Source: Gamaleyavirus AN24P2
Length of the DNA stretch: 64,000 nucleotides
Reading direction: 5' to 3' (one strand)
Sequence record: OZ035810.1
Shown: positions 12,357-52,079 of the stretch, in pieces
Position numbering within the stretch: position 1 is the stretch's first letter
How the letters are laid out: each line of letters opens with the position of its first letter
Translations under genes and position numbers: made by a program
The notes under the pieces: generated by a model
Databases searched by the model: none
Told to the model about the DNA's origin: nothing
Seen by the model: only the letters and a program-made list of their open reading frames with translations

Positions 12357-14321
12357 ATGGCTCAAATTACATGGCGTAATGTTGATGCACCTAACTTCTC
12401 TGGAGTTGGTGACAGCATTCGCACATTTGGAAGCATGATTGGTAACGCCACCTCCGGCTTAAGTGATGCACTGGGTAATTTCCAGAACGCTGCCAAGCAG
12501 GAGGCTGGCAATGCCGTCATGATGAATGCTATGCAGTATCAAGACCCAACTGAGTATCGTAATGCTTTGGCGTCTGGTGCACTGTTTCAGGGTGTTGACC
12601 CTTCTCTGATAAGCCAACGTACTCTCCAGAATCTGGATGAACGAGCAGGTACATTATTGAGTCAGCAAGGTCAACAAGGAACCAATGACTACAATAACTA
12701 TCGTTTTGGTCGATTACAGAAAAATGATTCTGCGTTAGATAATGCTTCTCCCGCTATTCGTTTATTGTCTGAAGCTTACCAGTCTGGTGACCAGAATCGT
12801 ATTAATACTGCATTGGGTCAGACTCGTGAGGCATTATCTACGCTCCCAGCTGACCAACAGTTAGAATTGTTAGGTAGTTTACAAGGACAGGGTAGTGCTG
12901 CTATTAATCAGGCGAGCAATCGTTTTGATTTGGGTGTTGCTCAACGTAATGATGCCGATAGTCAGGCAGCTATGGGTGTAATGGCACAGATTACCCGTGG
13001 TGCTGAGAACCCTAATGATGCCCGTCTGTTGGCAGAAGCATACAGTAAGAACCTGTCTCCAGTTGCACAGGCACGCTTGCAGGGATTACTGGCTAATGCT
13101 TACCCGGGTGTTTACGGTAATGGTGTAGGTGCTACGTCTGCTCCTGGTACTGCTGGTACTCGTCAGGGTTCACCTTACGATGTTACTTATCAGTTTGCTG
13201 GTACATCTACTCCTATTACTCAAATGAGTATTGGTGATGTAATTAAACACCAGGATGGTATGAAATCGAACCAGGGTGCTTCCCCTGTTGGTGCATTCCA
13301 GATTAACCAAGCTACTCTGAAAGACTTCGCTCCCAAAGTTCTTGGTTCAGATTGGCAAAGCCAGCCTCTTTCTGCTGAGAACCAGGATAAGATTGGTAAG
13401 GCTATCTTCGAGTCTCGTAAGAATGGCAACCTTAAAGATACCTGGGCTGCTCTTCCTAACTCTACCCCAGGTGCTTATAAGGACATGACTTGGGAAGAGA
13501 TTAAACCTGTTATTGCCCAAGCTGAAGTAGGGGCTGACCCACTCGCTATGGTTCAGAATAATCAAGGCAATCAGGCAGTATCTACCTTGGCTCAGGGTAT
13601 GATTGGTACACGTTCTATGCAGGATAATACCGGTAGTCTTAATACTGACTTCCTTGGTACTGTCACTGATAATACCCCAGTAGGTGAGATTGCTAACCGT
13701 CTGTTGGAAGGTGATTTTAAAGGTGCTGACCGTAACTGGGTACTGAACCGACTGAACGATATTTCTCAACGTGGAAATATGTCACCAGCTATGGCTGCTG
13801 CTGTTATGCAACGTGCACAGACTGGTGTACCAGAAGGTTATATTAGTCGTGCTATTGATGCAGTTAACCCATTCATTACCAACGAAGCCGGTAATGGTAT
13901 GCGTCTTAATGACCGTCAGGTAGAACAGTTAATTGAGGGTGTGAAACGGGGAGAACCACTGGAAGGTAGTGTTCGTAACCTAGGTCGTGCTCAGGCTATG
14001 CAGAATATTCAGGCAGCACAGACTGCATATGATGCTGCTGTAGCTGCACTGACAAATACCCAGAATAAGATTAACACCGGGCAAAGTGGTCTTACTGCAC
14101 TGTTACCTGCACGTCAGGAAGCTGTTAATAAAGCTGCTGCAATGCTACAAGCTGCACAGGCACAAGTACAGGCTGACCCAGCTAACCTGGCTCCAAAAGG
14201 TTTTCGGTCACAGGCTAGTGTGGACAGGGCACGAGCAAAGGAAGATGAAGAACGTGCTGCACGTTACCTACGTCAGGCACAAGGATTGCCTGAGTATATG
14301 CAACCAAGACAAAATCGGTAA
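12357..14321 (+). CDS. virion-module protein (internal/ejection protein candidate)
   Basis: 654 aa; Gln/Ala/Asn-rich; immediately upstream of vRNAP gene. Confidence 0.5.
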   Translation: MAQITWRNVDAPNFSGVGDSIRTFGSMIGNATSGLSDALGNFQNAAKQEAGNAVMMNAMQYQDPTEYRNALASGALFQGVDPSLISQRTLQNLDERAGTLLSQQGQQGTNDYNNYRFGRLQKNDSALDNASPAIRLLSEAYQSGDQNRINTALGQTREALSTLPADQQLELLGSLQGQGSAAINQASNRFDLGVAQRNDADSQAAMGVMAQITRGAENPNDARLLAEAYSKNLSPVAQARLQGLLANAYPGVYGNGVGATSAPGTAGTRQGSPYDVTYQFAGTSTPITQMSIGDVIKHQDGMKSNQGASPVGAFQINQATLKDFAPKVLGSDWQSQPLSAENQDKIGKAIFESRKNGNLKDTWAALPNSTPGAYKDMTWEEIKPVIAQAEVGADPLAMVQNNQGNQAVSTLAQGMIGTRSMQDNTGSLNTDFLGTVTDNTPVGEIANRLLEGDFKGADRNWVLNRLNDISQRGNMSPAMAAAVMQRAQTGVPEGYISRAIDAVNPFITNEAGNGMRLNDRQVEQLIEGVKRGEPLEGSVRNLGRAQAMQNIQAAQTAYDAAVAALTNTQNKINTGQSGLTALLPARQEAVNKAAAMLQAAQAQVQADPANLAPKGFRSQASVDRARAKEDEERAARYLRQAQGLPEYMQPRQNR

Positions 14322-25167: not shown

Positions 25168-25548
25168 TTAAATGGTGCAACCACCACCGTCACAGGTGTT
25201 GTTTTCTGCAAAGGAAGCTAAAGCCTTAGCAGTTTCTTCTTTTTCATGCAGTGCCTGACGTAGCAGGTAACCCTCCAATTCCCAAATCTTATTGAATGCA
25301 TTTTCATATGCATATTGACGACCCTTCTGCTCATCATAGATAGTCGGGTCAACACAGGCAGATACACCTTCAATTTTGAAGCCGTTTTCCAGGATAATAA
25401 CGCAATGGGTTACCAGACCCAGGTTAGCCAAATCGTCTGCAGGTAGTGCAGAAGGGTTAACGAAGGCAGATTTCACTGCATCAGCACCATTGAAATAGTA
25501 GACGCTCTTAATCTTAGCTTCAATTGATTCTTTACTTACTGTTGCCAT
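25168..25548 (-). CDS. conserved phage protein, function unknown
   Basis: 126 aa ORF, C-terminal CDGGGC motif. Confidence 0.45.
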   Translation of the reverse strand: MATVSKESIEAKIKSVYYFNGADAVKSAFVNPSALPADDLANLGLVTHCVIILENGFKIEGVSACVDPTIYDEQKGRQYAYENAFNKIWELEGYLLRQALHEKEETAKALASFAENNTCDGGGCTI

Positions 25549-26000: not shown

Positions 26001-26077
26001 GGTGTCCACTACTGGATTTGAACCAGTGACTTTCCGATTATTAGTCGGTTGCTTTCCCCGTCTAAGCTAAGTGGACT
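26001..26077 (-). tRNA. tRNA gene, isotype unresolved
   Basis: Hand fold of reverse complement: 7-bp acceptor GTCCACT/AGTGGAC, D-stem GCTT/AAGC with GG loop, T-arm ACTGG-TTCAAAT-CCAGT, 73-nt body; anticodon loop CTAATAA gives unusual anticodon AAT; CCA not fully encoded. Confidence 0.5.
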
Positions 26078-26083
26078 TATTAT

Positions 26084-26159
26084 GGTTACCCAGGCAGGAT
26101 TCGAACCTGCGTCCTAGTTGGTTTACTAGTGGGGCTTTACCACTAAGCCTACTGGGTAT
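26084..26159 (-). tRNA. tRNA-like gene with aberrant anticodon arm
   Basis: 7-bp acceptor TACCCAG/CTGGGTA, D-arm GGCT-TAGTGGTAA-AGCC, T-arm GCAGG-TTCGAAT-CCTGC, encoded CCA, 76 nt; anticodon arm folds only as CTAGT/ACTAG with a 6-nt loop. Confidence 0.4.
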
Positions 26160-32577: not shown

Positions 32578-33497
32578 CGCTTAACCTGCCCCTCCACGAC
32601 CTTGATAGCACCCTTGCCACCTTTCTCAGCCATGAAGATACGAGCAGATGCCATATCGTCAAAGTTTTTGGTACTTCTGGCTCCAGGCACATCTACCTTA
32701 GAAGCATCAGAGAAGTATTTGAACTGTGGTTCTGTTCGCCACAACTCCTCGTCAGTACATTCAGGGATTTGCTCTTCAGGAGCATCCCAGTACTTCTCAA
32801 TGAGGTGAATCTTTTCTTCTACCCAACGTTCAGTCTTCTCGACAGATAGCAACGGAATATCCTTATGCATAATACGATTAGCAGGATAGTTTGGATTGCT
32901 ATTAGCCATATGCTTCATGAAGTCAGTGAAGATGTAGTTAATACGAATTACATCCTCGGTAATGATGTCGTTGTGAATCCAACGGTACAAGCTGCCTTGC
33001 ATCTTGTGTTCATCATCACGGGAACCAGCAACCCAGGAATAGGTTGAGGTAGATTTGAAGTCTTGCAACAGACCTTCTGTTACGATGTCGAACTTACCAC
33101 CAATAGTCCAACCCTTAACTACTCTGGTTCCACGCTGTTCAATGTAGATTGGGATAAGGTCTGGATTAGCATCAAAGTCTGCTTTGGTTGGGTTAATGAC
33201 TACTGCATCAATGACTCGCTGAGGATAACCCAATTTATTCAATGCAGTTTTATGGCCCAGCTTCCAGGCTTTCTCGATAGAATCATGTAAGCCAGTACCC
33301 ATTGATGTGGATACGAAATCCATAACATCAATTGACTGGTCACTGAAATCTACACGATGTTTCATGACTATTTGCTTAAGTGGCTTAAGCAGTGTGGTAG
33401 CAGACAGATACTTAGGATTGTCTACGTAATCATACTCATCGTGTAGTAGCCATACAGCCAGGGCCAGTGAGACATCATGGTTATTGGTTATCTTCAT
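32517..33497 (-). CDS. PD-(D/E)XK-type nuclease with C-terminal Cys cluster (putative exonuclease)
   Basis: 326 aa; GKFDIVTEG...QDFK segment and C-terminal CLYCPVASIC. Confidence 0.4.
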   Translation of the reverse strand: MKITNNHDVSLALAVWLLHDEYDYVDNPKYLSATTLLKPLKQIVMKHRVDFSDQSIDVMDFVSTSMGTGLHDSIEKAWKLGHKTALNKLGYPQRVIDAVVINPTKADFDANPDLIPIYIEQRGTRVVKGWTIGGKFDIVTEGLLQDFKSTSTYSWVAGSRDDEHKMQGSLYRWIHNDIITEDVIRINYIFTDFMKHMANSNPNYPANRIMHKDIPLLSVEKTERWVEEKIHLIEKYWDAPEEQIPECTDEELWRTEPQFKYFSDASKVDVPGARSTKNFDDMASARIFMAEKGGKGAIKVVEGQVKRCLYCPVASICKQRERYFTS

Positions 33498-33970
33498 TAG
33501 TAGGTAATCCTATAACGATAAATATCTGCCCAGTTAATAGACAGCAGCTGTGGTTCCTTTGGAAAGCATGTGTAGGTTGTACAATGGTTTTTGTACTCAT
33601 AATCAAGCTTTTTCCACTTACGCATGAAGGATGGTCTTTCGTTACTGTAAACCCAATCCGTATTGGATTCTTCCAACTTAACTACTTCACCACTATCCTT
33701 AGAATCAAGGTAAGCTTTAGCAAGTAGACGATTAGCGTAATGAACAAGCTTCTCACAATCATACACTGGAGTATTTCCAGGTTTACCATTACCCATACGG
33801 GCAGCAGCATTTCGCCATAGAGCTTTAAAGGCACAACCTTCATCGAAGGTCATGCCCAGTGCTTGGATAATATCTTCACACTCTGCTTGGTATGGCTCCT
33901 GCTCTTTCCGTTGGGGGTTCTTAACCGGTACTACATACCAGTTATTTAATCCACCGGAGAGCTTAGTCAT
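33497..33970 (-). CDS. hypothetical protein
   Basis: 157 aa ORF, start overlaps upstream stop. Confidence 0.45.
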   Translation of the reverse strand: MTKLSGGLNNWYVVPVKNPQRKEQEPYQAECEDIIQALGMTFDEGCAFKALWRNAAARMGNGKPGNTPVYDCEKLVHYANRLLAKAYLDSKDSGEVVKLEESNTDWVYSNERPSFMRKWKKLDYEYKNHCTTYTCFPKEPQLLSINWADIYRYRITY

Positions 33971-47269: not shown

Positions 47270-47298
47270 TTAAAAAAGCCCACGGGTTAGGTGGGCTT
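47270..47298 (-). terminator. rho-independent terminator
   Basis: agcccac-gggttag-gtgggct hairpin with A-run on +. Confidence 0.5.
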
Positions 47299-47370: not shown

Positions 47371-47649
47371 TTACTCTGCTTTACTGCCACCATTGGTTTG
47401 AACAACAGTTACATTTGTAACCTGGTTCTGACCTTTGTTGGACAGTGACCAAATCAGTGCCACTACCCAGAATACCAGTGACCAGCCTAATACGATATTA
47501 AGCACACCAATACCCCACTTAGAGGCATGGCCTCGTGCAAAAGCAATGATAGTAGGGATAAGGTACACAGCTAATACAAATAACAGAACAAGGATTGCTG
47601 CTAAAGATTCCATGATGGTTCCTATGTGAGGTTGAGTTAGTTTCTTCAC
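47371..47649 (-). CDS. small membrane protein
   Basis: 92 aa; hydrophobic segments LAAILVLLFVLAVYLIPTIIAF and VLNIVLGWSLVFWVVALIW. Confidence 0.5.
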   Translation of the reverse strand: MKKLTQPHIGTIMESLAAILVLLFVLAVYLIPTIIAFARGHASKWGIGVLNIVLGWSLVFWVVALIWSLSNKGQNQVTNVTVVQTNGGSKAE

Positions 47650-47920: not shown

Positions 47921-48427
47921 TTATTTTGAAGGTCTAGCGGCTACTGGTTTGTTTTCCTGGTCCTGATACTTGCCATTGTAATTAGCAGGTTCCTGAACCA
48001 GATGAAATAATACTTGAGCTATCCCAGCACCAGCCGGGATATGCAATTTCTTACGACCATGATAGACCAGTTCGAGAGTAAGATACCCTTTCCATCCTGG
48101 TTCTATTACAGTATTGAACACTGATAATGCACGTCTTGCCCAGGTAGACTTATCGTGAACGATAGCTACACAGGACGGGGACATGTTGAACTTCTCAATT
48201 GCTGAAGCCAAGGCGAACTTACCGAGATGGCGTGATACTTGATTCCCATCAATGACTTTCACCATTGGAATCAACCCAAATAAGCGATAGAAGGTAATAT
48301 CTTGTTTGATACGAATATCGTAACCAGCTTCACCCAATCCATAGCTTACGCCATGCTCTGATACCTTACGGTCTGGGACATCCAGCAACTGAGATGAACG
48401 GTATAGGGAATTACCATTAACAACCAT
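47921..48427 (-). CDS. dcd: dCTP deaminase (dUTPase-fold)
   Basis: 168 aa; IEPGWKGYLTLELVYHG and KYQDQENKP parallel E. coli Dcd IDPGWSGCIVLEFYNSG and KYRNQQG. Confidence 0.6.
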   Translation of the reverse strand: MVVNGNSLYRSSQLLDVPDRKVSEHGVSYGLGEAGYDIRIKQDITFYRLFGLIPMVKVIDGNQVSRHLGKFALASAIEKFNMSPSCVAIVHDKSTWARRALSVFNTVIEPGWKGYLTLELVYHGRKKLHIPAGAGIAQVLFHLVQEPANYNGKYQDQENKPVAARPSK

Positions 48428-49602
48428 TATTTCATTCCTTTAGGGATATGAACTACCTCCCCAAAAGGTACGGTAGCATTGGGATTATTCAGAACACACC
48501 AGATGACGGGGATATCAAATGGTAATTCTTCCATTGGATGAACATACATATCAGAGAATATGATTGCAGCGGTTGGCTTATTCTTAATAATCCAATCGCG
48601 TACTGGTTCTAGGTTTGTACCACCCCGACCGGTAATCTTAATTTCCTCAAAAGTATCTTCTTCAGTGATGTCTATTTCTTCCTGGATAACATCGTCGAAG
48701 GTAATTAGGGACATCTTCTTAGGGTTGAATTGGCTCTTAACGTAGGCAACCTCTGAGTTAAAACGCAGAGAGTCTGCACTACTAATAGAACCAGATACAT
48801 CTTCAAAGTAAGCCAAGTGTCGTAAACGTCCTTCATCATCTTCCATGGAAGGTAGGTAGATGTCAGTGTAACGACGGTTAGGTCTGGCCCACGTATAATG
48901 AGTATCGTCGATGTCAGTAAAGAAGTTCATCAGGACTTCTTGCCAAGGAACTACTGGTTTAAGGAATTGGGTAATAACCTCTTCCATACGCCCAGCACCT
49001 TTACCGGGCATCATTCCACCAGCCATCTTCTGGCTTTGCATCGCACGTACTACGTTGTTGACGACAGCACCCTGGGACTGCCCCGAAGAGGGGGATTTCA
49101 TGTCGCCAGCAAGACCTGCTCCAGCACCCCCTGACGGCTTCTGCCTTTTCTGAGGATTCTTCATCAGGTCATCGTAGATGTCTTCTTCGACCCATCCTTT
49201 ATATTGGGGGTCTTTGCAAATGCCTTCATTGATACCAGTGAACTTGTAACCATCTTCTTCTAACTGAAGGTTAATGAAGTGGTCACATGCCTGGTTCCAG
49301 ACTTCTGGGTCACGGCTTCCACGACGAATGCCATGCAGATATGCCACATGCCAGAGTTCGTGCATTAACACTGTTTCTCTGGCATCTGGACACATCCAGA
49401 TAAAGAAATCTGGATTGAAATGGAGTTCTATCCCATCAGTACATGCAGTGGGGCAATCCTCACGTTTCCATGAGAACTTAAGGCTACATAGTAATGAACC
49501 AAAGAACGCAGCAGACTTGCCTAGGAAAGCCTGAGCTTGAATACGATCATATTCGCGCATTAGTTGTTCATCACTAAGGGAGTGCTGAGGAAATTGGTTC
49601 AT
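48427..49602 (-). CDS. VWA-domain protein with N-terminal HExxH metallopeptidase-like domain
   Basis: 391 aa; HELWHVAYLHG motif N-terminal; partner of adjacent MoxR-type ATPase. Confidence 0.55.
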   Translation of the reverse strand: MNQFPQHSLSDEQLMREYDRIQAQAFLGKSAAFFGSLLCSLKFSWKREDCPTACTDGIELHFNPDFFIWMCPDARETVLMHELWHVAYLHGIRRGSRDPEVWNQACDHFINLQLEEDGYKFTGINEGICKDPQYKGWVEEDIYDDLMKNPQKRQKPSGGAGAGLAGDMKSPSSGQSQGAVVNNVVRAMQSQKMAGGMMPGKGAGRMEEVITQFLKPVVPWQEVLMNFFTDIDDTHYTWARPNRRYTDIYLPSMEDDEGRLRHLAYFEDVSGSISSADSLRFNSEVAYVKSQFNPKKMSLITFDDVIQEEIDITEEDTFEEIKITGRGGTNLEPVRDWIIKNKPTAAIIFSDMYVHPMEELPFDIPVIWCVLNNPNATVPFGEVVHIPKGMK

Positions 49603-49606
49603 TGTT

Positions 49607-50659
49607 TTATCCGTGAATGTAGCGAGAGATGTTAGCAGCAGCCTTACGCCATTCAGGGGTAGCCTGAAGTTCTGGTAATGCTCTGCCTACTGTACGGAAG
49701 TACAGAATCTTATGGGTGAACGTTTTAAAACGCTCAATGTACTGAAGAACATCAGCGAAGTTTTCTTCAGTGGTTTTGTTAGCCAGATGGTTAACGGTAG
49801 CCCAACACAGGTTATTATCTTCCGGTAGTGCACAGCCCAGCGGGTCTTTGACTACTTTCTCAATCGTAATCATACGATTATACACCTGTGTAAACTGAAC
49901 AAACTCTGTAGCCTTACCGGCAGTAACGTGGCCTGCATAGTAGATAGAATCTTCATCTGGCAGAGCACCTTCAGGACGGTTCTTGAGGTCTTTGTTAACA
50001 AAGTCCCAGGTACGAGGGCAGCAGAACGTTTTGTTCTTATGGGCTGGGTCGAAGTCATGCAGATAACCAGGGTTAGCATGTAGGAATGCAACCAGACGTT
50101 CATCCCATTCTTGAGGAATCATTACGTCTTCAACAAAGATGTCGAAGTTAAGTTCCATTTCGAAGTGGACAACACGAGACTGCATTGCAGTACCCAGTGG
50201 GTTAACAATTGCACGGTCAGTAGCTTTGTTACCTGCACAGATAATCATCACATTAGGATGAAGTTTTTTCTGACCAGTCATACGGTCTAGAATCAGTTTG
50301 TATGCAGCAGCTATTACTTCTTTGCGAGCAGATGGGAACTCGTCAAGGAATAAGAGCCAGCCATTATACCCTTCTGGTATTTCATCCCCCTCAATAGGGA
50401 ATAAGTCAGCGAATGGGATAAACTCTGCACGGTCACCATTACGGAATGGTAAACCAGATAAGTCTTCCGGGGCAGAAGTAGACAGACGATGGTCTATCAG
50501 CTTCATACCAAATTCTTCTGCAACAGAACGAATAATTGCAGATTTACCCATGCCTGGTGATGAAGTCAGGAACGGTACGTTACCTGCTTGTAGGGCACGA
50601 ATAATAAAGTTACGGGCCTGACGTGTATTACATACGGTCAGTGAGTCAATGCTCGCCAT
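49607..50659 (-). CDS. AAA+ ATPase, MoxR-like
   Basis: 350 aa; Walker A SSPGMGKSA, Walker B LFLDEF. Confidence 0.7.
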   Translation of the reverse strand: MASIDSLTVCNTRQARNFIIRALQAGNVPFLTSSPGMGKSAIIRSVAEEFGMKLIDHRLSTSAPEDLSGLPFRNGDRAEFIPFADLFPIEGDEIPEGYNGWLLFLDEFPSARKEVIAAAYKLILDRMTGQKKLHPNVMIICAGNKATDRAIVNPLGTAMQSRVVHFEMELNFDIFVEDVMIPQEWDERLVAFLHANPGYLHDFDPAHKNKTFCCPRTWDFVNKDLKNRPEGALPDEDSIYYAGHVTAGKATEFVQFTQVYNRMITIEKVVKDPLGCALPEDNNLCWATVNHLANKTTEENFADVLQYIERFKTFTHKILYFRTVGRALPELQATPEWRKAAANISRYIHG

Positions 50660-50693: not shown

Positions 50694-51020
50694 TTAAGAT
50701 TTAATACATGGGTATGCTGTATCAATCGCCAACAGAACCATGTCTGATGGTACTTTTACTGCATTAACCTTTCGGTCGTACAGAATAATAGTGGCTACTT
50801 TGTCAAAGACATTTCCCAGCTTCATATTATCTGGTACGCAGTTTTTACCTGCTTCTACACCCATAGTAACCATACCCATGAAGTAACCCTGGTTCACAAA
50901 GTTTGAATTATTAGCTTTGTAGTCAGCAGCAGCTTCCAACAAAGTTGCACGACTGGATGCTTGAGCACCGAATGACAAAACTGATAAAGCTACTAGGACA
51001 ACAGCAATTAAAGTTTTCAT
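50694..51020 (-). CDS. secreted small protein (signal peptide)
   Basis: 108 aa; N-terminus MKTLIAVVLVALSVLSFGAQA is a signal peptide. Confidence 0.5.
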   Translation of the reverse strand: MKTLIAVVLVALSVLSFGAQASSRATLLEAAADYKANNSNFVNQGYFMGMVTMGVEAGKNCVPDNMKLGNVFDKVATIILYDRKVNAVKVPSDMVLLAIDTAYPCIKS

Positions 51021-51205
51021 TTAGTTACCTTTGATTCGTTGAGTTGAAGTACTCCGGTAGGGGTTAATGACCACCCAATACCAGTATTGAATTGCACTAA
51101 GCCCAGTTTTTTAAGAGACTGTGCGGTTTTGTTATTACGGTTGCTGGTGGCAGAACCACCTTGAACCATACGAAGGAAGATTGCTTGGGACTGAGTAAGT
51201 TTCAA
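51017..51205 (-). CDS. hypothetical small protein
   Basis: 62 aa; 4-nt overlaps with both neighbours. Confidence 0.4.
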   Translation of the reverse strand: MKLTQSQAIFLRMVQGGSATSNRNNKTAQSLKKLGLVQFNTGIGWSLTPTGVLQLNESKVTK

Positions 51206-51411
51206 AGATAGTATCCTTCCAGGTTTATTGGAGTTACAAATGTACTTGCTGACAGACAGAAAGACTTGCCAGTCTCTACAGCAACAGCAGCAGGTTTACC
51301 ATCAGGTAAGGTAACTTTTAGGCATACCGTCTGCATATAAATAAAACCATTGGCAGGTTGTACATCGCCAAAAGTTACCTCATTGTTTTCAGAACGATTT
51401 GTTACTTTCAT
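51202..51411 (-). CDS. hypothetical small protein
   Basis: 69 aa; translationally coupled. Confidence 0.4.
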   Translation of the reverse strand: MKVTNRSENNEVTFGDVQPANGFIYMQTVCLKVTLPDGKPAAVAVETGKSFCLSASTFVTPINLEGYYL

Positions 51412-51596
51412 TTCTTCTCCGGTACGAACTGCATTACGCAGTTTTGATTACGAGGGATATTCAATTCACATTCATGCTTGAGGGTTTGCGTTACAGAATT
51501 TGGTGTAGAACCAAAGTAGGTATTAGAAATAGCTACAAATCCTGCACCTATTAAACCACCCAGTAAGAATGAGAAGAATGCAATCTCTTTATACAT
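51408..51596 (-). CDS. small membrane protein
   Basis: 62 aa; hydrophobic segment IAFFSFLLGGLIGAGFVAI. Confidence 0.4.
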   Translation of the reverse strand: MYKEIAFFSFLLGGLIGAGFVAISNTYFGSTPNSVTQTLKHECELNIPRNQNCVMQFVPEKK

Positions 51597-51619: not shown

Positions 51620-51653
51620 CCAAAAAAAGACCTCCCTTCAATAGGGAGGTCAA
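51620..51653 (-). terminator. rho-independent terminator
   Basis: gacctccc-ttcaata-gggaggtc hairpin with 7-A run on +. Confidence 0.6.
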
Positions 51654-51700: not shown

Positions 51701-52015
51701 TCAGGATTGCGTAGCAAGCCAATCCAGATATTCTTCTGGGTCATCGAAGTATTCATTACCATCTTCATAGAACCAGTCAACCCAACGGTCTTCTAGTTCC
51801 ATATCGACTAGGTCTTGGTCAGTGAGGGACTCATCCCACATCTCAATACCGTTAGCATTAGCATAATCGCCTTTGACATTGTTCTCATACTGAAATAGGT
51901 CATAGTCTGCTAATGCATTCTTAATCTTAACAGCTTCCTGAAGACTGTCTGTTTCTACATGAAATGCCTTCATTGGCACTTGAGGAATGTGCCATACACG
52001 CAATTTTTGTGTCAT
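51701..52015 (-). CDS. acidic hypothetical protein
   Basis: ORF 51701..52090 trimmed to ATG at 52015 preceded by AGGAGAG; Asp/Glu-rich. Confidence 0.45.
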   Translation of the reverse strand: MTQKLRVWHIPQVPMKAFHVETDSLQEAVKIKNALADYDLFQYENNVKGDYANANGIEMWDESLTDQDLVDMELEDRWVDWFYEDGNEYFDDPEEYLDWLATQS

Positions 52016-52079
52016 TTTTACTCTCCTATAAATACAAGAAGCCCTCACAAGGAGGGCTTTAACCAAATAAAGACTACTA

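What the first reader, a model, noticed from the sequence alone, without database searches (positions are those of the whole stretch)
50694..51596. Translationally coupled four-gene cassette encoding membrane, small and secreted proteins
Four short ORFs with 4-nt overlaps are bracketed by terminators; the first encodes a membrane protein and the last a signal-peptide protein. This looks like a small envelope-targeted module, possibly for superinfection exclusion or host envelope modification.
Basis: inference. Interest (0 to 1): 0.45.

Follow-up and report, generated by a model that had tools for sequence, protein, structure and literature searches.

The report
Phage carries swappable cell-wall immunity gene
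The four small genes are real and conserved in G7C-type coliphages, but they are a mixed bag at the start of a longer operon; the last one encodes a secreted protein with the fold of the bacterial "immunity" proteins that block cell-wall-cutting toxins, and different versions of it have been swapped between otherwise near-identical phages, which suggests an arms race.

Summary
The window is a Gamaleyavirus (G7C-like, N4-like coliphage; 100% identical to AN24P2). The four ORFs exist on the minus strand with 4-nt overlaps (ATGA, TTGA, ATGA), and A, C and D are under purifying selection. Only the upstream terminator is real. The next minus-strand terminator lies 3.4 kb downstream, so the ORFs head an operon running through gp24, gp25 and a T4-Imm-like gene.

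They are not one envelope module:
- A (G7C gp17.1) is a 62-aa single-pass membrane protein with a conserved two-cysteine tail.
- B is an optional insert, found in 19 phage records.

D is 34–92% identical among phages whose flanking genes are 86–100% identical, and nucleotide identity collapses exactly inside D. No other window gene co-varies with it across four genomes.

Best reading: D is an orphan periplasmic inhibitor of an incoming Tae4/Ssp1-type cell-wall amidase, delivered either by a bacterial T6SS or by a rival phage. Some GenBank records already label it Tai4/Rap1a, but I found no paper on it.

The parts
51629..51651 (-). Intrinsic terminator that ends the preceding GP17-like gene, 32 nt upstream of A's start
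   Evidence: 9-bp stem with 6 GC pairs, 5-nt loop, then T7. It folds as predicted in the 104-nt intergenic RNA, -28.3 kcal/mol, z = -2.5. Annotated as a stem_loop at the same place in G7C.
51408..51596 (-). A = G7C gp17.1: 62-aa single-pass membrane protein. Gly/Ala/Ser-rich transmembrane segment at residues 5-23, and a conserved C-terminal tail with two cysteines (ECELNIPRNQNCVMQFVPEKK).
   Evidence: Kyte-Doolittle maximum 2.28. phrog_7508, E 1.3e-33. 84-100% identical in most Gamaleyaviruses. The tail is kept in Klebsiella phage KP8 with 10 synonymous versus 2 non-synonymous codon differences. Found in 99 phage records. Topology is inferred, not tested.
51202..51411 (-). B: 69-aa acidic soluble protein of unknown function, an optional module inserted between A and C
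   Evidence: phrog_18793, E 1.6e-48. No hydrophobic segment, pI 5.05. Present in only 19 phage records. Absent from G7C, PBM-3, phiG17, Moonfish and Bas96.
51017..51205 (-). C = G7C gp17.2: 62-aa very basic (pI 11.3) winged-helix protein, probably cytoplasmic and nucleic-acid-binding. TTG start.
50694..51020 (-). D = G7C gp17.3: 108-aa pre-protein with a signal peptide of residues 1-21 (predicted cleavage AQA|SS). The mature 87-aa five-helix protein has the Rap1a/'Tai4a' fold with Cys61 and Cys105. It is a hypervariable allele cassette.
49607..50659 (-). gp24 AAA-type ATPase, starting 34 nt after D with no terminator between; co-transcribed by inference
   Evidence: ORF and AGGAG ribosome-binding site. 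Annotated as ATPase, similar to N4 gp24, in G7C. 95-99% identical across Gamaleyaviruses.
48427..49602 (-). gp25 VWA-like / DUF2201 protein, next gene in the same unit
   Evidence: ORF. G7C annotation. The homologue in L010 carries PF13203 and PF09967.
47371..47649 (-). T4-Imm-like superinfection immunity membrane protein, last gene of the unit
   Evidence: PF14373 Imm_superinfect, 61.4 bits against a cut-off of 27.9. Annotated gp27.1 in G7C.
47276..47298 (-). First terminator-like hairpin on the coding strand downstream of the cassette
   Evidence: 8-bp stem with 5 GC pairs, followed by a T-run.

Best explanation
The four ORFs are the first genes of a middle-gene operon (A-B-C-D-gp24-gp25-dCTP deaminase-...-Imm). 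The operon lies in the plastic gp17-gp24 zone of a G7C-like (Gamaleyavirus) N4-type coliphage. They are independent modules joined at NTGA stop/start overlaps, not one machine.

The informative gene is D. I propose the following steps:
1. D is exported by the Sec pathway and its signal peptide is cut after AQA.
2. It is oxidised to a Cys61-Cys105 disulfide and folds as a five-helix Rap1a ('Tai4a')-type protein, probably a dimer through its conserved helix 2.
3. Like Rap1a, it binds and sterically blocks a papain-like peptidoglycan amidase/endopeptidase of the Tae4/Ssp1 type that reaches the periplasm of the infected cell from outside.
4. This keeps the cell wall intact until the phage has finished its cycle.

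The surface that contacts the effector in Rap1a is the part that varies. Whole alleles have been exchanged by recombination between otherwise near-identical phages. This is the pattern expected if the target is a diverse set of enzymes encoded outside the phage. The most likely source is T6SS effectors of competing Enterobacteriaceae; less likely, wall-degrading enzymes carried by rival phages.

The other three products: A is a small membrane protein with a conserved, probably periplasmic, disulfide-loop tail and unknown function. C is a small winged-helix nucleic-acid binder. B is an optional gene of unknown function.

Shown: gene structure, conservation, folds, family relationship, allele swapping. 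Inferred: export, disulfide, dimer, inhibition, and the identity and origin of the target.
For: Identity of the phage: 100% match to Gamaleyavirus AN24P2, with synteny to G7C gp17.1-17.3.

Fold and family of D:
- AF2 model with pLDDT above 90 in the mature domain.
- The top 7 Foldseek PDB hits are all Tai4 or Rap1a, probability 0.82-1.0.
- A profile of D homologues searched against 1.84 billion proteins reaches proteins that score 56-72 bits on Pfam Rap1a.
- hhalign of the D family against those proteins: 99.4% probability, E 3.5e-21. Their profile hits PDB Tai4 and Rap1a by sequence.
- Two invariant cysteines 44 residues apart, one in the helix2-helix3 loop and one near the C-terminus. This matches the Rap1a Cys78-Cys122 disulfide (PMC3852654).

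Allele swapping:
- Protein identities are A 84-100%, C 86-95%, gp24 95-99%, but D 34-92%.
- Nucleotide identity falls from 90-98% to 43-52% exactly between 51020 and 50720, and recovers in the last ~30 nt of D.
- At least 5 allele classes exist among 117 cluster representatives.
- Selection within classes is purifying, dN/dS about 0.18.

Variable surface:
- Positions mapped from Rap1a's Ssp1-contact residues have mean entropy 0.75, against 0.33 elsewhere (permutation p = 0.015). Helix 2, which forms the dimer interface in Rap1a, is the most conserved element.

Target is external to the phage:
- D is the only window ORF with the class I/class IV identity pattern across four complete genomes.
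- Pfam finds no NlpC/P60 or Tae4-like domain in the virion proteins scanned, and the endolysin is a GH108 muramidase.

Precedent: orphan Rap/Tai4 genes are proposed to protect against foreign Tae4 effectors in an arms race (PMC3852654).
Against: - No biochemical or genetic data exist for any phage copy.
- D alone scores below Pfam's Rap1a cut-off (19.8 against 27.7 bits). Neither D nor its family profile hits a PDB sequence directly.
- No effector gene lies next to D, so the usual effector-immunity pairing is absent.
- The D clade is confined to N4-like phages. I found no close bacterial relatives in E. coli genomes, plasmids or GTDB species representatives. The alleles were therefore not recently captured from bacterial T6SS loci.
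- The closest bacterial Pfam-Rap1a members I examined are themselves orphans with no amidase nearby. The family may have roles other than T6SS immunity.
- It is not obvious that a virulent phage with a short cycle gains much from T6SS protection.
- The interface mapping rests on a cysteine anchor rather than a structural superposition. Its enrichment is modest and not register-specific.
Confidence: 0.45

Rival explanations
1. Spackle-like superinfection exclusion. D inhibits a peptidoglycan-degrading enzyme carried on the virions of competing phages, so a second phage cannot breach the wall of an already infected cell. It would act alongside the Imm-like protein encoded at the end of the same operon.
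For: - T4 Spackle is a small periplasmic early protein that binds and inhibits the gp5 tail lysozyme (PMC7677548). T4 uses it together with Imm, and an Imm homologue (PF14373) ends this operon.
- Phage-phage arms races would explain the hypervariable alleles.
- The D clade is phage-specific and old within Schitoviridae, which fits a phage-directed role.
Against: - D does not have the Spackle fold. The known partners of its family are T6SS amidases.
- The Schitoviridae ejection apparatus has no reported peptidoglycan hydrolase (PMC11445570). None was found by Pfam in the virion proteins here, so self-exclusion by this route is unlikely.
- No virion gene co-varies with D.
- No target enzyme in other coliphages has been identified.
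Confidence: 0.2
2. D tunes the host's own wall metabolism or the timing of lysis. It would bind an E. coli NlpC/P60-type endopeptidase (MepS, MepH, NlpC or YafL) or another periplasmic enzyme, stabilising the sacculus of the infected cell or delaying lysis.
For: - Tae4/Ssp1 belong to the papain-like NlpC/P60 superfamily, which includes host endopeptidases (established knowledge, not tested here).
- D is expressed with middle genes, upstream of the replication functions.
- N4-type phages regulate lysis timing (PMC12642591).
Against: - Host enzymes are conserved, so they do not explain why D alleles differ by more than 60% between phages infecting the same species.
- The N4 rapid-lysis mutants mapped so far lie in the lysis cassette, the vRNAP gene and the terminal repeats, not in this region.
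Confidence: 0.1
3. One reading: the four proteins act together as one envelope module. For example, A anchors or partners D in the periplasm while B and C act as accessories, giving exclusion or envelope modification.
For: - The overlapping stop/start codons suggest co-expression.
- A-C-D order is conserved in all 14 Gamaleyavirus loci examined.
- A and D are both likely to expose cysteine-containing parts to the periplasm.
Against: - C has a MarR-type winged-helix fold and pI 11.3, so it is not an envelope protein.
- B is optional.
- A is 100% identical in phages whose D alleles are only 36-38% identical, so there is no co-variation between them.
- In a more distant N4-like contig C and D are kept but A is missing.
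- In Klebsiella phages A and C occur without D, and in phage P184 they lie about 6 kb apart.
Confidence: 0.08
4. D reuses the Rap1a fold for an unrelated job, for example binding a receptor, a porin, a bacteriocin or a defence sensor in the periplasm. It would have nothing to do with peptidoglycan hydrolases.
For: - Small helical bundles are versatile.
- Sequence similarity to characterised members is low: 9-16% in the structural alignments.
- Bacterial relatives are often orphans.
Against: - The family-defining disulfide and helix-2 core are preserved.
- The variable positions coincide with the effector-contact region of Rap1a.
- No alternative partner is suggested by any data.
Confidence: 0.15

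Closest known systems
Rap1a ('Tai4a') of Serratia marcescens, immunity protein to the T6SS amidase Ssp1 (PDB 3zfi, 4bi8; Pfam PF18602)
   Same: - About 100-aa periplasmic pre-protein with a signal peptide.
- Cysteine in the helix2-helix3 loop paired with a cysteine near the C-terminus, 44 residues apart.
- Conserved helix 2, which forms the dimer interface in Rap1a.
- Variable segment after the first cysteine, where Rap1a contacts Ssp1.
   Different: - Encoded by a virulent phage, not in a T6SS cluster, with no adjacent effector gene.
- Only about 10% identity in the structural alignment, and below Pfam's cut-off as a single sequence.
- Exists as several deeply divergent alleles exchanged between near-identical genomes.
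- Binding and inhibition are untested.
Tai4 of Agrobacterium tumefaciens (PDB 6ije; complex with Tae4 6ijf)
   Different: 14-16% identity. It is a chromosomal effector-immunity pair, whereas the phage gene is an orphan.
Orphan Rap/Tai4 immunity genes (Rap1b, Rap2b; the Cronobacter orphans), proposed to protect against foreign Tae4 effectors
   Same: An immunity-type gene without a cognate effector, with an arms-race logic (PMC3852654, section 3.7).
   Different: Those are bacterial chromosomal genes that protect the bacterium permanently. Here the gene would act only during a lytic infection and would benefit the phage.
Phage T4 Spackle (gp61.3)
   Same: Works-like analogy: a small periplasmic phage protein that blocks a wall-degrading enzyme arriving from outside. 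In T4 it acts alongside an Imm protein, and an Imm homologue is present in this operon.
   Different: Spackle structures did not appear among the top PDB matches. Its target is a lysozyme domain, not a papain-like amidase. No homology is claimed.
MarR-type winged helix-turn-helix domains (for protein C)
   Different: Only the about 60-aa winged-helix core is present, without the MarR dimerisation helices. There is no significant sequence match to any Pfam family, and DNA binding is untested.

Membership tests
Rap1a / 'Tai4a' immunity proteins (Pfam PF18602) | Compact five-alpha-helix fold of Rap1a | tested here: met
Rap1a / 'Tai4a' immunity proteins (Pfam PF18602) | Sequence membership: score above Pfam's gathering threshold | tested here: not met
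   D alone scores 19.8 bits (E 0.0012) against a cut-off of 27.7. Membership is supported only at profile level: hhalign 99.4%, E 3.5e-21, to proteins scoring 56-72 bits on PF18602. D is best called a divergent phage clade of the superfamily.
Rap1a / 'Tai4a' immunity proteins (Pfam PF18602) | Disulfide between a cysteine in the helix2-helix3 loop and a cysteine in the C-terminal region (Rap1a Cys78-Cys122) | tested here: met
   Cys61 (loop 58-67) and Cys105 are invariant in all D alleles and in the bacterial relatives. The spacing is 44 residues, as in Rap1a. Actual oxidation was not tested.
Rap1a / 'Tai4a' immunity proteins (Pfam PF18602) | N-terminal signal peptide and periplasmic location | tested here: met
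   MK + 15-residue hydrophobic core + AQA|SS, and pLDDT below 55 for residues 1-20. The signal peptide is conserved in all alleles. This is a prediction from sequence only; no SignalP run or experiment.
Rap1a / 'Tai4a' immunity proteins (Pfam PF18602) | Encoded next to its cognate Tae4/Ssp1-type amidase effector | tested here: not met
   The neighbours are A, B, C and the gp24 ATPase. No amidase is annotated in G7C. Pfam finds no such domain in the virion proteins scanned. D is an orphan.
Rap1a / 'Tai4a' immunity proteins (Pfam PF18602) | Homodimer that binds and sterically blocks the effector active site, giving protection from the effector | not testable with these tools
   This needs binding, inhibition and competition assays. 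The only indirect support is conserved helix 2 and variability at the mapped contact positions.
Main Tai4 family (Rap2a, EcTai4, StTai4; the name used in some GenBank records) | Rap2a/EcTai4-type fold with a protruding loop that enters the effector active site | tested here: not met
   No Pfam match other than Rap1a was returned at E <= 1. The structural hits are Rap1a and A. tumefaciens Tai4 only. PMC3852654 states that the Rap1a fold is distinct from conventional Tai4. 'Tai4' in GenBank should be read as 'Tai4a/Rap1a-type'.
T4 Spackle-type superinfection exclusion proteins | Homology or shared fold with Spackle, and inhibition of a tail lysozyme | tested here: not met
   No Spackle entry appears among the top PDB matches. 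No sequence match to any PDB chain. The resemblance is functional analogy only.
   The upstream terminator at 51651-51629 is present. No terminator lies between D and gp24. The next one is at 47298-47276.
MarR-like winged-helix DNA-binding proteins (protein C) | Winged helix-turn-helix fold | tested here: met
MarR-like winged-helix DNA-binding proteins (protein C) | Sequence membership and the MarR dimerisation helices | tested here: not met
   No Pfam family scores above threshold; the only hit is Ribosomal_S19e at E 0.17. The protein is only 62 aa, which is the winged-helix core alone.

The most novel reading that the evidence does not exclude
Virulent N4-like coliphages carry a recombination-swappable 'immunity cartridge'. 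This would be a phage-specific clade of Rap1a-type proteins that transiently makes the infected cell resistant to cell-wall amidases fired by neighbouring bacteria's type VI secretion systems. The phage would thereby protect its replication host from interbacterial killing, and the allele classes would track the effector repertoires of the local community.
Probability: 0.25. Interest if true: 0.75.

Novelty: new variant of a known kind. Interest (0 to 1): 0.5.

Why it matters
If D really neutralises incoming wall-degrading enzymes, lytic phages would be taking part in interbacterial warfare. An infected cell would temporarily gain an immunity it does not encode itself. That would link two fields usually studied apart, phage infection and T6SS competition.

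It would also explain why this one gene is replaced wholesale between phages that are otherwise about 95% identical.

In practical terms, Gamaleyaviruses are being developed for therapy against UPEC and APEC strains. A gene that changes how infected cells fare in mixed communities, or against other phages in a cocktail, is worth knowing about.

Even if the T6SS idea is wrong, the sharply bounded allele cassette marks D as a contact point with something variable in the environment. It is also cheap to test.

Tried and rejected
- Direct sequence searches of D against PDB, NCBIfam and PADLOC gave nothing. The D-family profile against PDB gave only spurious signal-peptide matches.
- I looked for a cognate enzyme in the phage. 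A Pfam scan of the gp51-gp55, gp57 and gp58 homologues, the endolysin and other proteins found no NlpC/P60, CHAP or Tae4 domain.
- A covariation scan of all window ORFs against four complete genomes found no gene that tracks the D allele class. About 7 kb of the genome, including the tailspike and terminase genes, lies outside the window and was not scanned.
- Searches for D-like genes in bacteria were negative: no blastn match in 5,426 complete E. coli genomes, no tblastn match in 72,556 plasmids, and no confirmed relative in 185,579 GTDB species genomes using class-I motifs.
A scan with a bacterial Rap1a member gave three uninformative loci.
- The contexts of bacterial Pfam-Rap1a members P0118 and P0123 showed no adjacent amidase. 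They neither support nor contradict the immunity reading.
- Literature searches pairing Tai4 or Rap1a with N4-like, Gamaleyavirus or Schitoviridae found no paper. The paper describing the UE-S5/UE-M phages, whose GenBank records carry the 'Tai4' label, never mentions it.
- I did not identify a promoter for the cassette. The sigma-70 scan found fewer sites than in shuffled sequence. The papers I read give no N4 middle-promoter consensus, so read-through versus a dedicated middle promoter remains open.
- I considered A as a lysis-inhibition factor (SAR-like transmembrane segment). The N4 lysis preprint implicates only the lysis cassette, the vRNAP gene and the terminal repeats, so this stays a speculation.
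Full report
**1. What the window is**

The 1.5 kb around the finding is 100% identical to Gamaleyavirus AN24P2 and 88-94% identical to many Escherichia phages of the genus Gamaleyavirus (G7C-like, N4-like; Schitoviridae). In G7C the same place holds gp17.1, gp17.2 and gp17.3. These lie between the Hoc-like decoration gene gp17 and the ATPase gp24.

**2. The observation**

All four ORFs are on the minus strand:
- A: 51596..51408, 62 aa
- B: 51411..51202, 69 aa
- C: 51205..51017, 62 aa, TTG start
- D: 51020..50694, 108 aa

The three junctions are 4-nt stop/start overlaps: ATGA, TTGA, ATGA. A has one strongly hydrophobic stretch at residues 5-23. D has a textbook signal peptide ending in AQA|SS. 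A strong intrinsic terminator (9-bp stem, then T7) lies at 51651..51629, 32 nt before A's start.

The downstream 'terminator' is not there. D's stop and gp24's start are 34 nt apart, and that gap holds only a ribosome-binding site. The next terminator-like hairpin on the coding strand is at 47298..47276, after a T4-Imm-like gene. By inference the transcription unit is A-B-C-D-gp24-gp25-dCTP deaminase-small ORF-Imm.

The genes are real. Each matches a PHROG family at E 1e-33 to 1e-54. Mean dN/dS within allele classes is 0.14-0.32 for A, C and D, against 0.05 for gp24.

**3. The cassette is modular, not a unit**

Across 14 Gamaleyavirus loci the core order is A-C-D. B is present in only 19 phage records. 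A different 86-aa ORF can sit in the same slot.

The first codon of C is ATG when it follows A, TTG when it follows B, and GTG when it follows the 86-aa ORF. Modules are therefore joined exactly at the NTGA overlap. This also validates the unusual TTG start here. The C/D overlap in this window comes from a 1-nt indel that changes C's last five residues. Relatives have TAA directly followed by ATG.

A homologues occur in 99 phage records and C homologues in 81, including Klebsiella and Erwinia N4-like phages. D occurs in 56, nearly all Escherichia or Shigella phages.

In Klebsiella phage KP8 the C-like gene comes before the A-like gene. The slot before gp24 holds an unrelated 119-aa secreted protein. 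In a more distant N4-like contig (gp24 74% identical), C and D are kept next to each other but A is missing.

**4. Protein C**

**5. Protein A**

The transmembrane segment (IAFFSFLLGGLIGAGFVAIS) is rich in Gly, Ala and Ser. It is followed by a 38-residue tail with two cysteines. The transmembrane half diverges: pSb-1, Jgk1 and KP8 are only about 50% identical overall. The tail ECELNIPRNQNCVM(Q/R)FVPEK is kept, with 10 synonymous against 2 non-synonymous codon differences between this phage and KP8.

The tail is therefore the constrained part. A periplasmic, disulfide-looped orientation is plausible but untested, and no family or function could be assigned.

**6. Protein D**

As a single sequence, D gives only a sub-threshold Pfam hit to Rap1a: 19.8 bits against a 27.7-bit cut-off. 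It has no PDB sequence hit. Three independent lines nevertheless place it in the Rap1a ('Tai4a') superfamily.

(ii) Profiles. An HMM of D homologues, searched against 1.84 billion representative proteins, finds 19 proteins at E <= 1e-3. The more distant ones score 56-72 bits on Pfam Rap1a. hhalign between the two sets gives 99.4% probability, E 3.5e-21. The bacterial set hits PDB Tai4 and Rap1a by sequence.

(iii) Hallmarks. Rap1a is a 26-residue-signal, five-helix periplasmic dimer. It is held together by a Cys78-Cys122 disulfide running from the helix2-helix3 loop to the C-terminal region (PMC3852654). D has five helices after its signal peptide and invariant Cys61 (in loop 58-67) and Cys105, the same 44-residue spacing. 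Its most conserved element is helix 2 (QGYFMGMV), which forms the dimer interface in Rap1a.

Some GenBank records already call the gene 'Tai4' or 'Rap1a': PBM-3, the UE-S5/UE-M phages, 24-32N and Moonfish. I found no paper that discusses it.

**7. D is a sharply bounded hypervariable cassette**

| Gene | Identity to this window among Gamaleyaviruses |
|---|---|
| A | 84-100% (about 50% in pSb-1) |
| C | 86-95% |
| gp24 | 95-99% |
| gp25 | 92-98% |
| D | 34-92% |

IME11 and ECBP1 have A 100% identical to this phage, yet their D is only 36-38% identical.

In pairwise DNA alignments, identity is 90-98% through A, B, C and gp24. It falls to 43-52% from about 51020 to 50720 and recovers in the last ~30 nt of D.

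Among 117 cluster representatives there are at least five allele classes. These are the G7C type, phiG17, P0104, Moonfish/Jgk1-like, and the IME11/ECBP1/Bp4/pSb-1 type. Still more distant D-like genes lie at or near the same genomic position in other N4-like contigs.

Within classes selection is purifying. Between classes synonymous sites are partly saturated. These are therefore old alleles moved by recombination, not a burst of recent positive selection.

Within the G7C class the most variable sites are 70, 65, 90, 39, 66, 71, 59, 25 and 64. I mapped Rap1a's Ssp1-contact residues (Y50, K58, R62, S81, Q82, Q84-T87, E90, E94, R119) onto D through the cysteine anchor. Those positions have mean entropy 0.75 against 0.33 for the rest (permutation p = 0.015). 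This is suggestive only. The mapping is not a structural superposition, and shifting the register changes the value little.

**8. Where is the partner?**

- No amidase is annotated in G7C.
- Pfam finds no NlpC/P60-, CHAP- or Tae4-type domain in the virion and ejection proteins scanned. The endolysin is a GH108 muramidase.
- The Schitoviridae ejection apparatus (outer-membrane pore, periplasmic tunnel, vRNAP) has no reported wall hydrolase (PMC11445570).
- I compared every window ORF with four complete genomes, two of each D class. D is the only gene that is about 90% identical in one class and 36-38% in the other.

The variable partner is therefore probably not encoded by the phage. The caveats are the small number of genomes and the roughly 7 kb of the genome outside the window.

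D-like sequences were not found in complete E. coli genomes, in plasmids, or with class-I motifs in GTDB species genomes. The clade is therefore phage-specific. The two bacterial Pfam-Rap1a members I inspected are orphans in ordinary chromosomal contexts.

**9. Interpretation**

The best-supported mechanism is that D is exported, oxidised, and acts like Rap1a as a stoichiometric steric inhibitor. Its target would be a papain-like peptidoglycan amidase/endopeptidase that enters the infected cell's periplasm from outside.

The allele pattern fits a diverse external target. The Rap1a paper itself proposes that orphan Rap/Tai4 genes protect against foreign Tae4 effectors in an arms race.

I rate T6SS effectors of competing Enterobacteriaceae as the likeliest source. 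A Spackle-like role against wall-degrading enzymes of rival phages is second (PMC7677548); note the Imm homologue in the same operon. Modulation of host endopeptidases or lysis timing, and a non-hydrolase partner, cannot be excluded. None of the functional steps was tested.

**10. Verdict**

- D is a divergent, phage-specific, orphan and hypervariable variant of a known immunity-protein family. The family label already appears in a few database records, but the context and the allele-swapping pattern appear to be undescribed.
- Interest is moderate. It would be considerably higher if protection against T6SS or phage-borne hydrolases were shown.

Noticed in passing
window 51701..52015 (-), with hairpins at 52059..52039 and 51651..51629: The gene just upstream of the cassette matches Pfam PF17420 'GP17' (P22 gene-17-like, labelled 'superinfection exclusion') at E 6.6e-46. 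Unlike the cassette, it is flanked by terminator-like hairpins on both sides. It is present in PGN829.1, IME11, U1G, ST4 and St11Ph5, but absent from G7C, PBM-3, ECBP1 and Bp4.
   Followed up: partly
window 47371..47649 (-): A T4-Imm-like superinfection immunity membrane protein (PF14373, 61 bits) is the last gene before the first downstream terminator (47298..47276). It therefore probably shares a transcript with the cassette.
   Followed up: partly
window 51205 (start of C); loci L001-L019: The start codon of C is ATG, TTG or GTG depending on whether A, B or the 86-aa ORF lies upstream. Optional genes are spliced in exactly at the NTGA stop/start overlap, which looks like a recurrent recombination joint.
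   Followed up: yes
window 51408..51473 (-) (C-terminal tail of A); L034 3498..3689 (KP8 gp030): A's tail ECELNIPRNQNCVM(Q/R)FVPEK is almost invariant from E. coli to Klebsiella N4-like phages, with 10 synonymous against 2 non-synonymous codon changes. The transmembrane half diverges freely. This is a conserved two-cysteine peptide of unknown function on a Gly/Ala/Ser-rich, SAR-like anchor.
   Followed up: partly
L034 3872..4231 (Klebsiella phage KP8 gp032): In KP8, downstream of the A-like gene and upstream of gp24 (with two further small ORFs in between), there is an unrelated 119-aa protein with a signal peptide and no similarity to the D or Rap1a profiles. Different secreted proteins seem to occupy this zone in different genera.
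   Followed up: partly
L011 1120..2204; L020 3573..4654; L021 651..1723: In other N4-like metagenomic contigs the D-like gene directly follows, and overlaps or abuts, a ~250-aa AAA ATPase (PF00004/PF07724). That ATPase is distinct from gp24. This is a recurring D-ATPase neighbourhood of unknown meaning.
   Followed up: no
L014 2562..4496 (U1G); L019 2508..4428 (pSb-1); L018 (Bp4): The gp24 ATPase gene is split by an HNH homing-endonuclease insertion in U1G and pSb-1. In Bp4 it is annotated in two pieces. The window's copy is intact.
   Followed up: no
window 26001..26076 (-) and 26083..26158 (-): ARAGORN finds a tRNA-Ile (anticodon AAT) and an adjacent odd tRNA-like gene with a two-base anticodon call. 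They lie in the long non-coding stretch between the vRNAP gene and the replication genes.
   Followed up: no
window 12357..14321 (+), 33497..33970 (-), 25168..25548 (-): Other mosaic genes turned up in the four-genome comparison. The gp51 (periplasmic-tunnel) homologue is 94-95% identical in three genomes but 62% in ECBP1. ORF 33497-33970 gives 61/97/85/62%. ORF 25168-25548 gives 94% in PGN829.1, 43% in IME11 and 95% in ECBP1. None tracks the D allele class.
   Followed up: partly
L004 1245..1505 (IME11_54); L010 4839..5108; L034 2619..2888 (KP8 gp027): An 86-89-aa two-TM membrane protein (MRKIA...GIV.FD.K.FSRA...) is another optional gene of the gp17-gp24 zone in IME11, Bp4, KP8 and a metagenomic contig. 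It is absent from this window.
   Followed up: no
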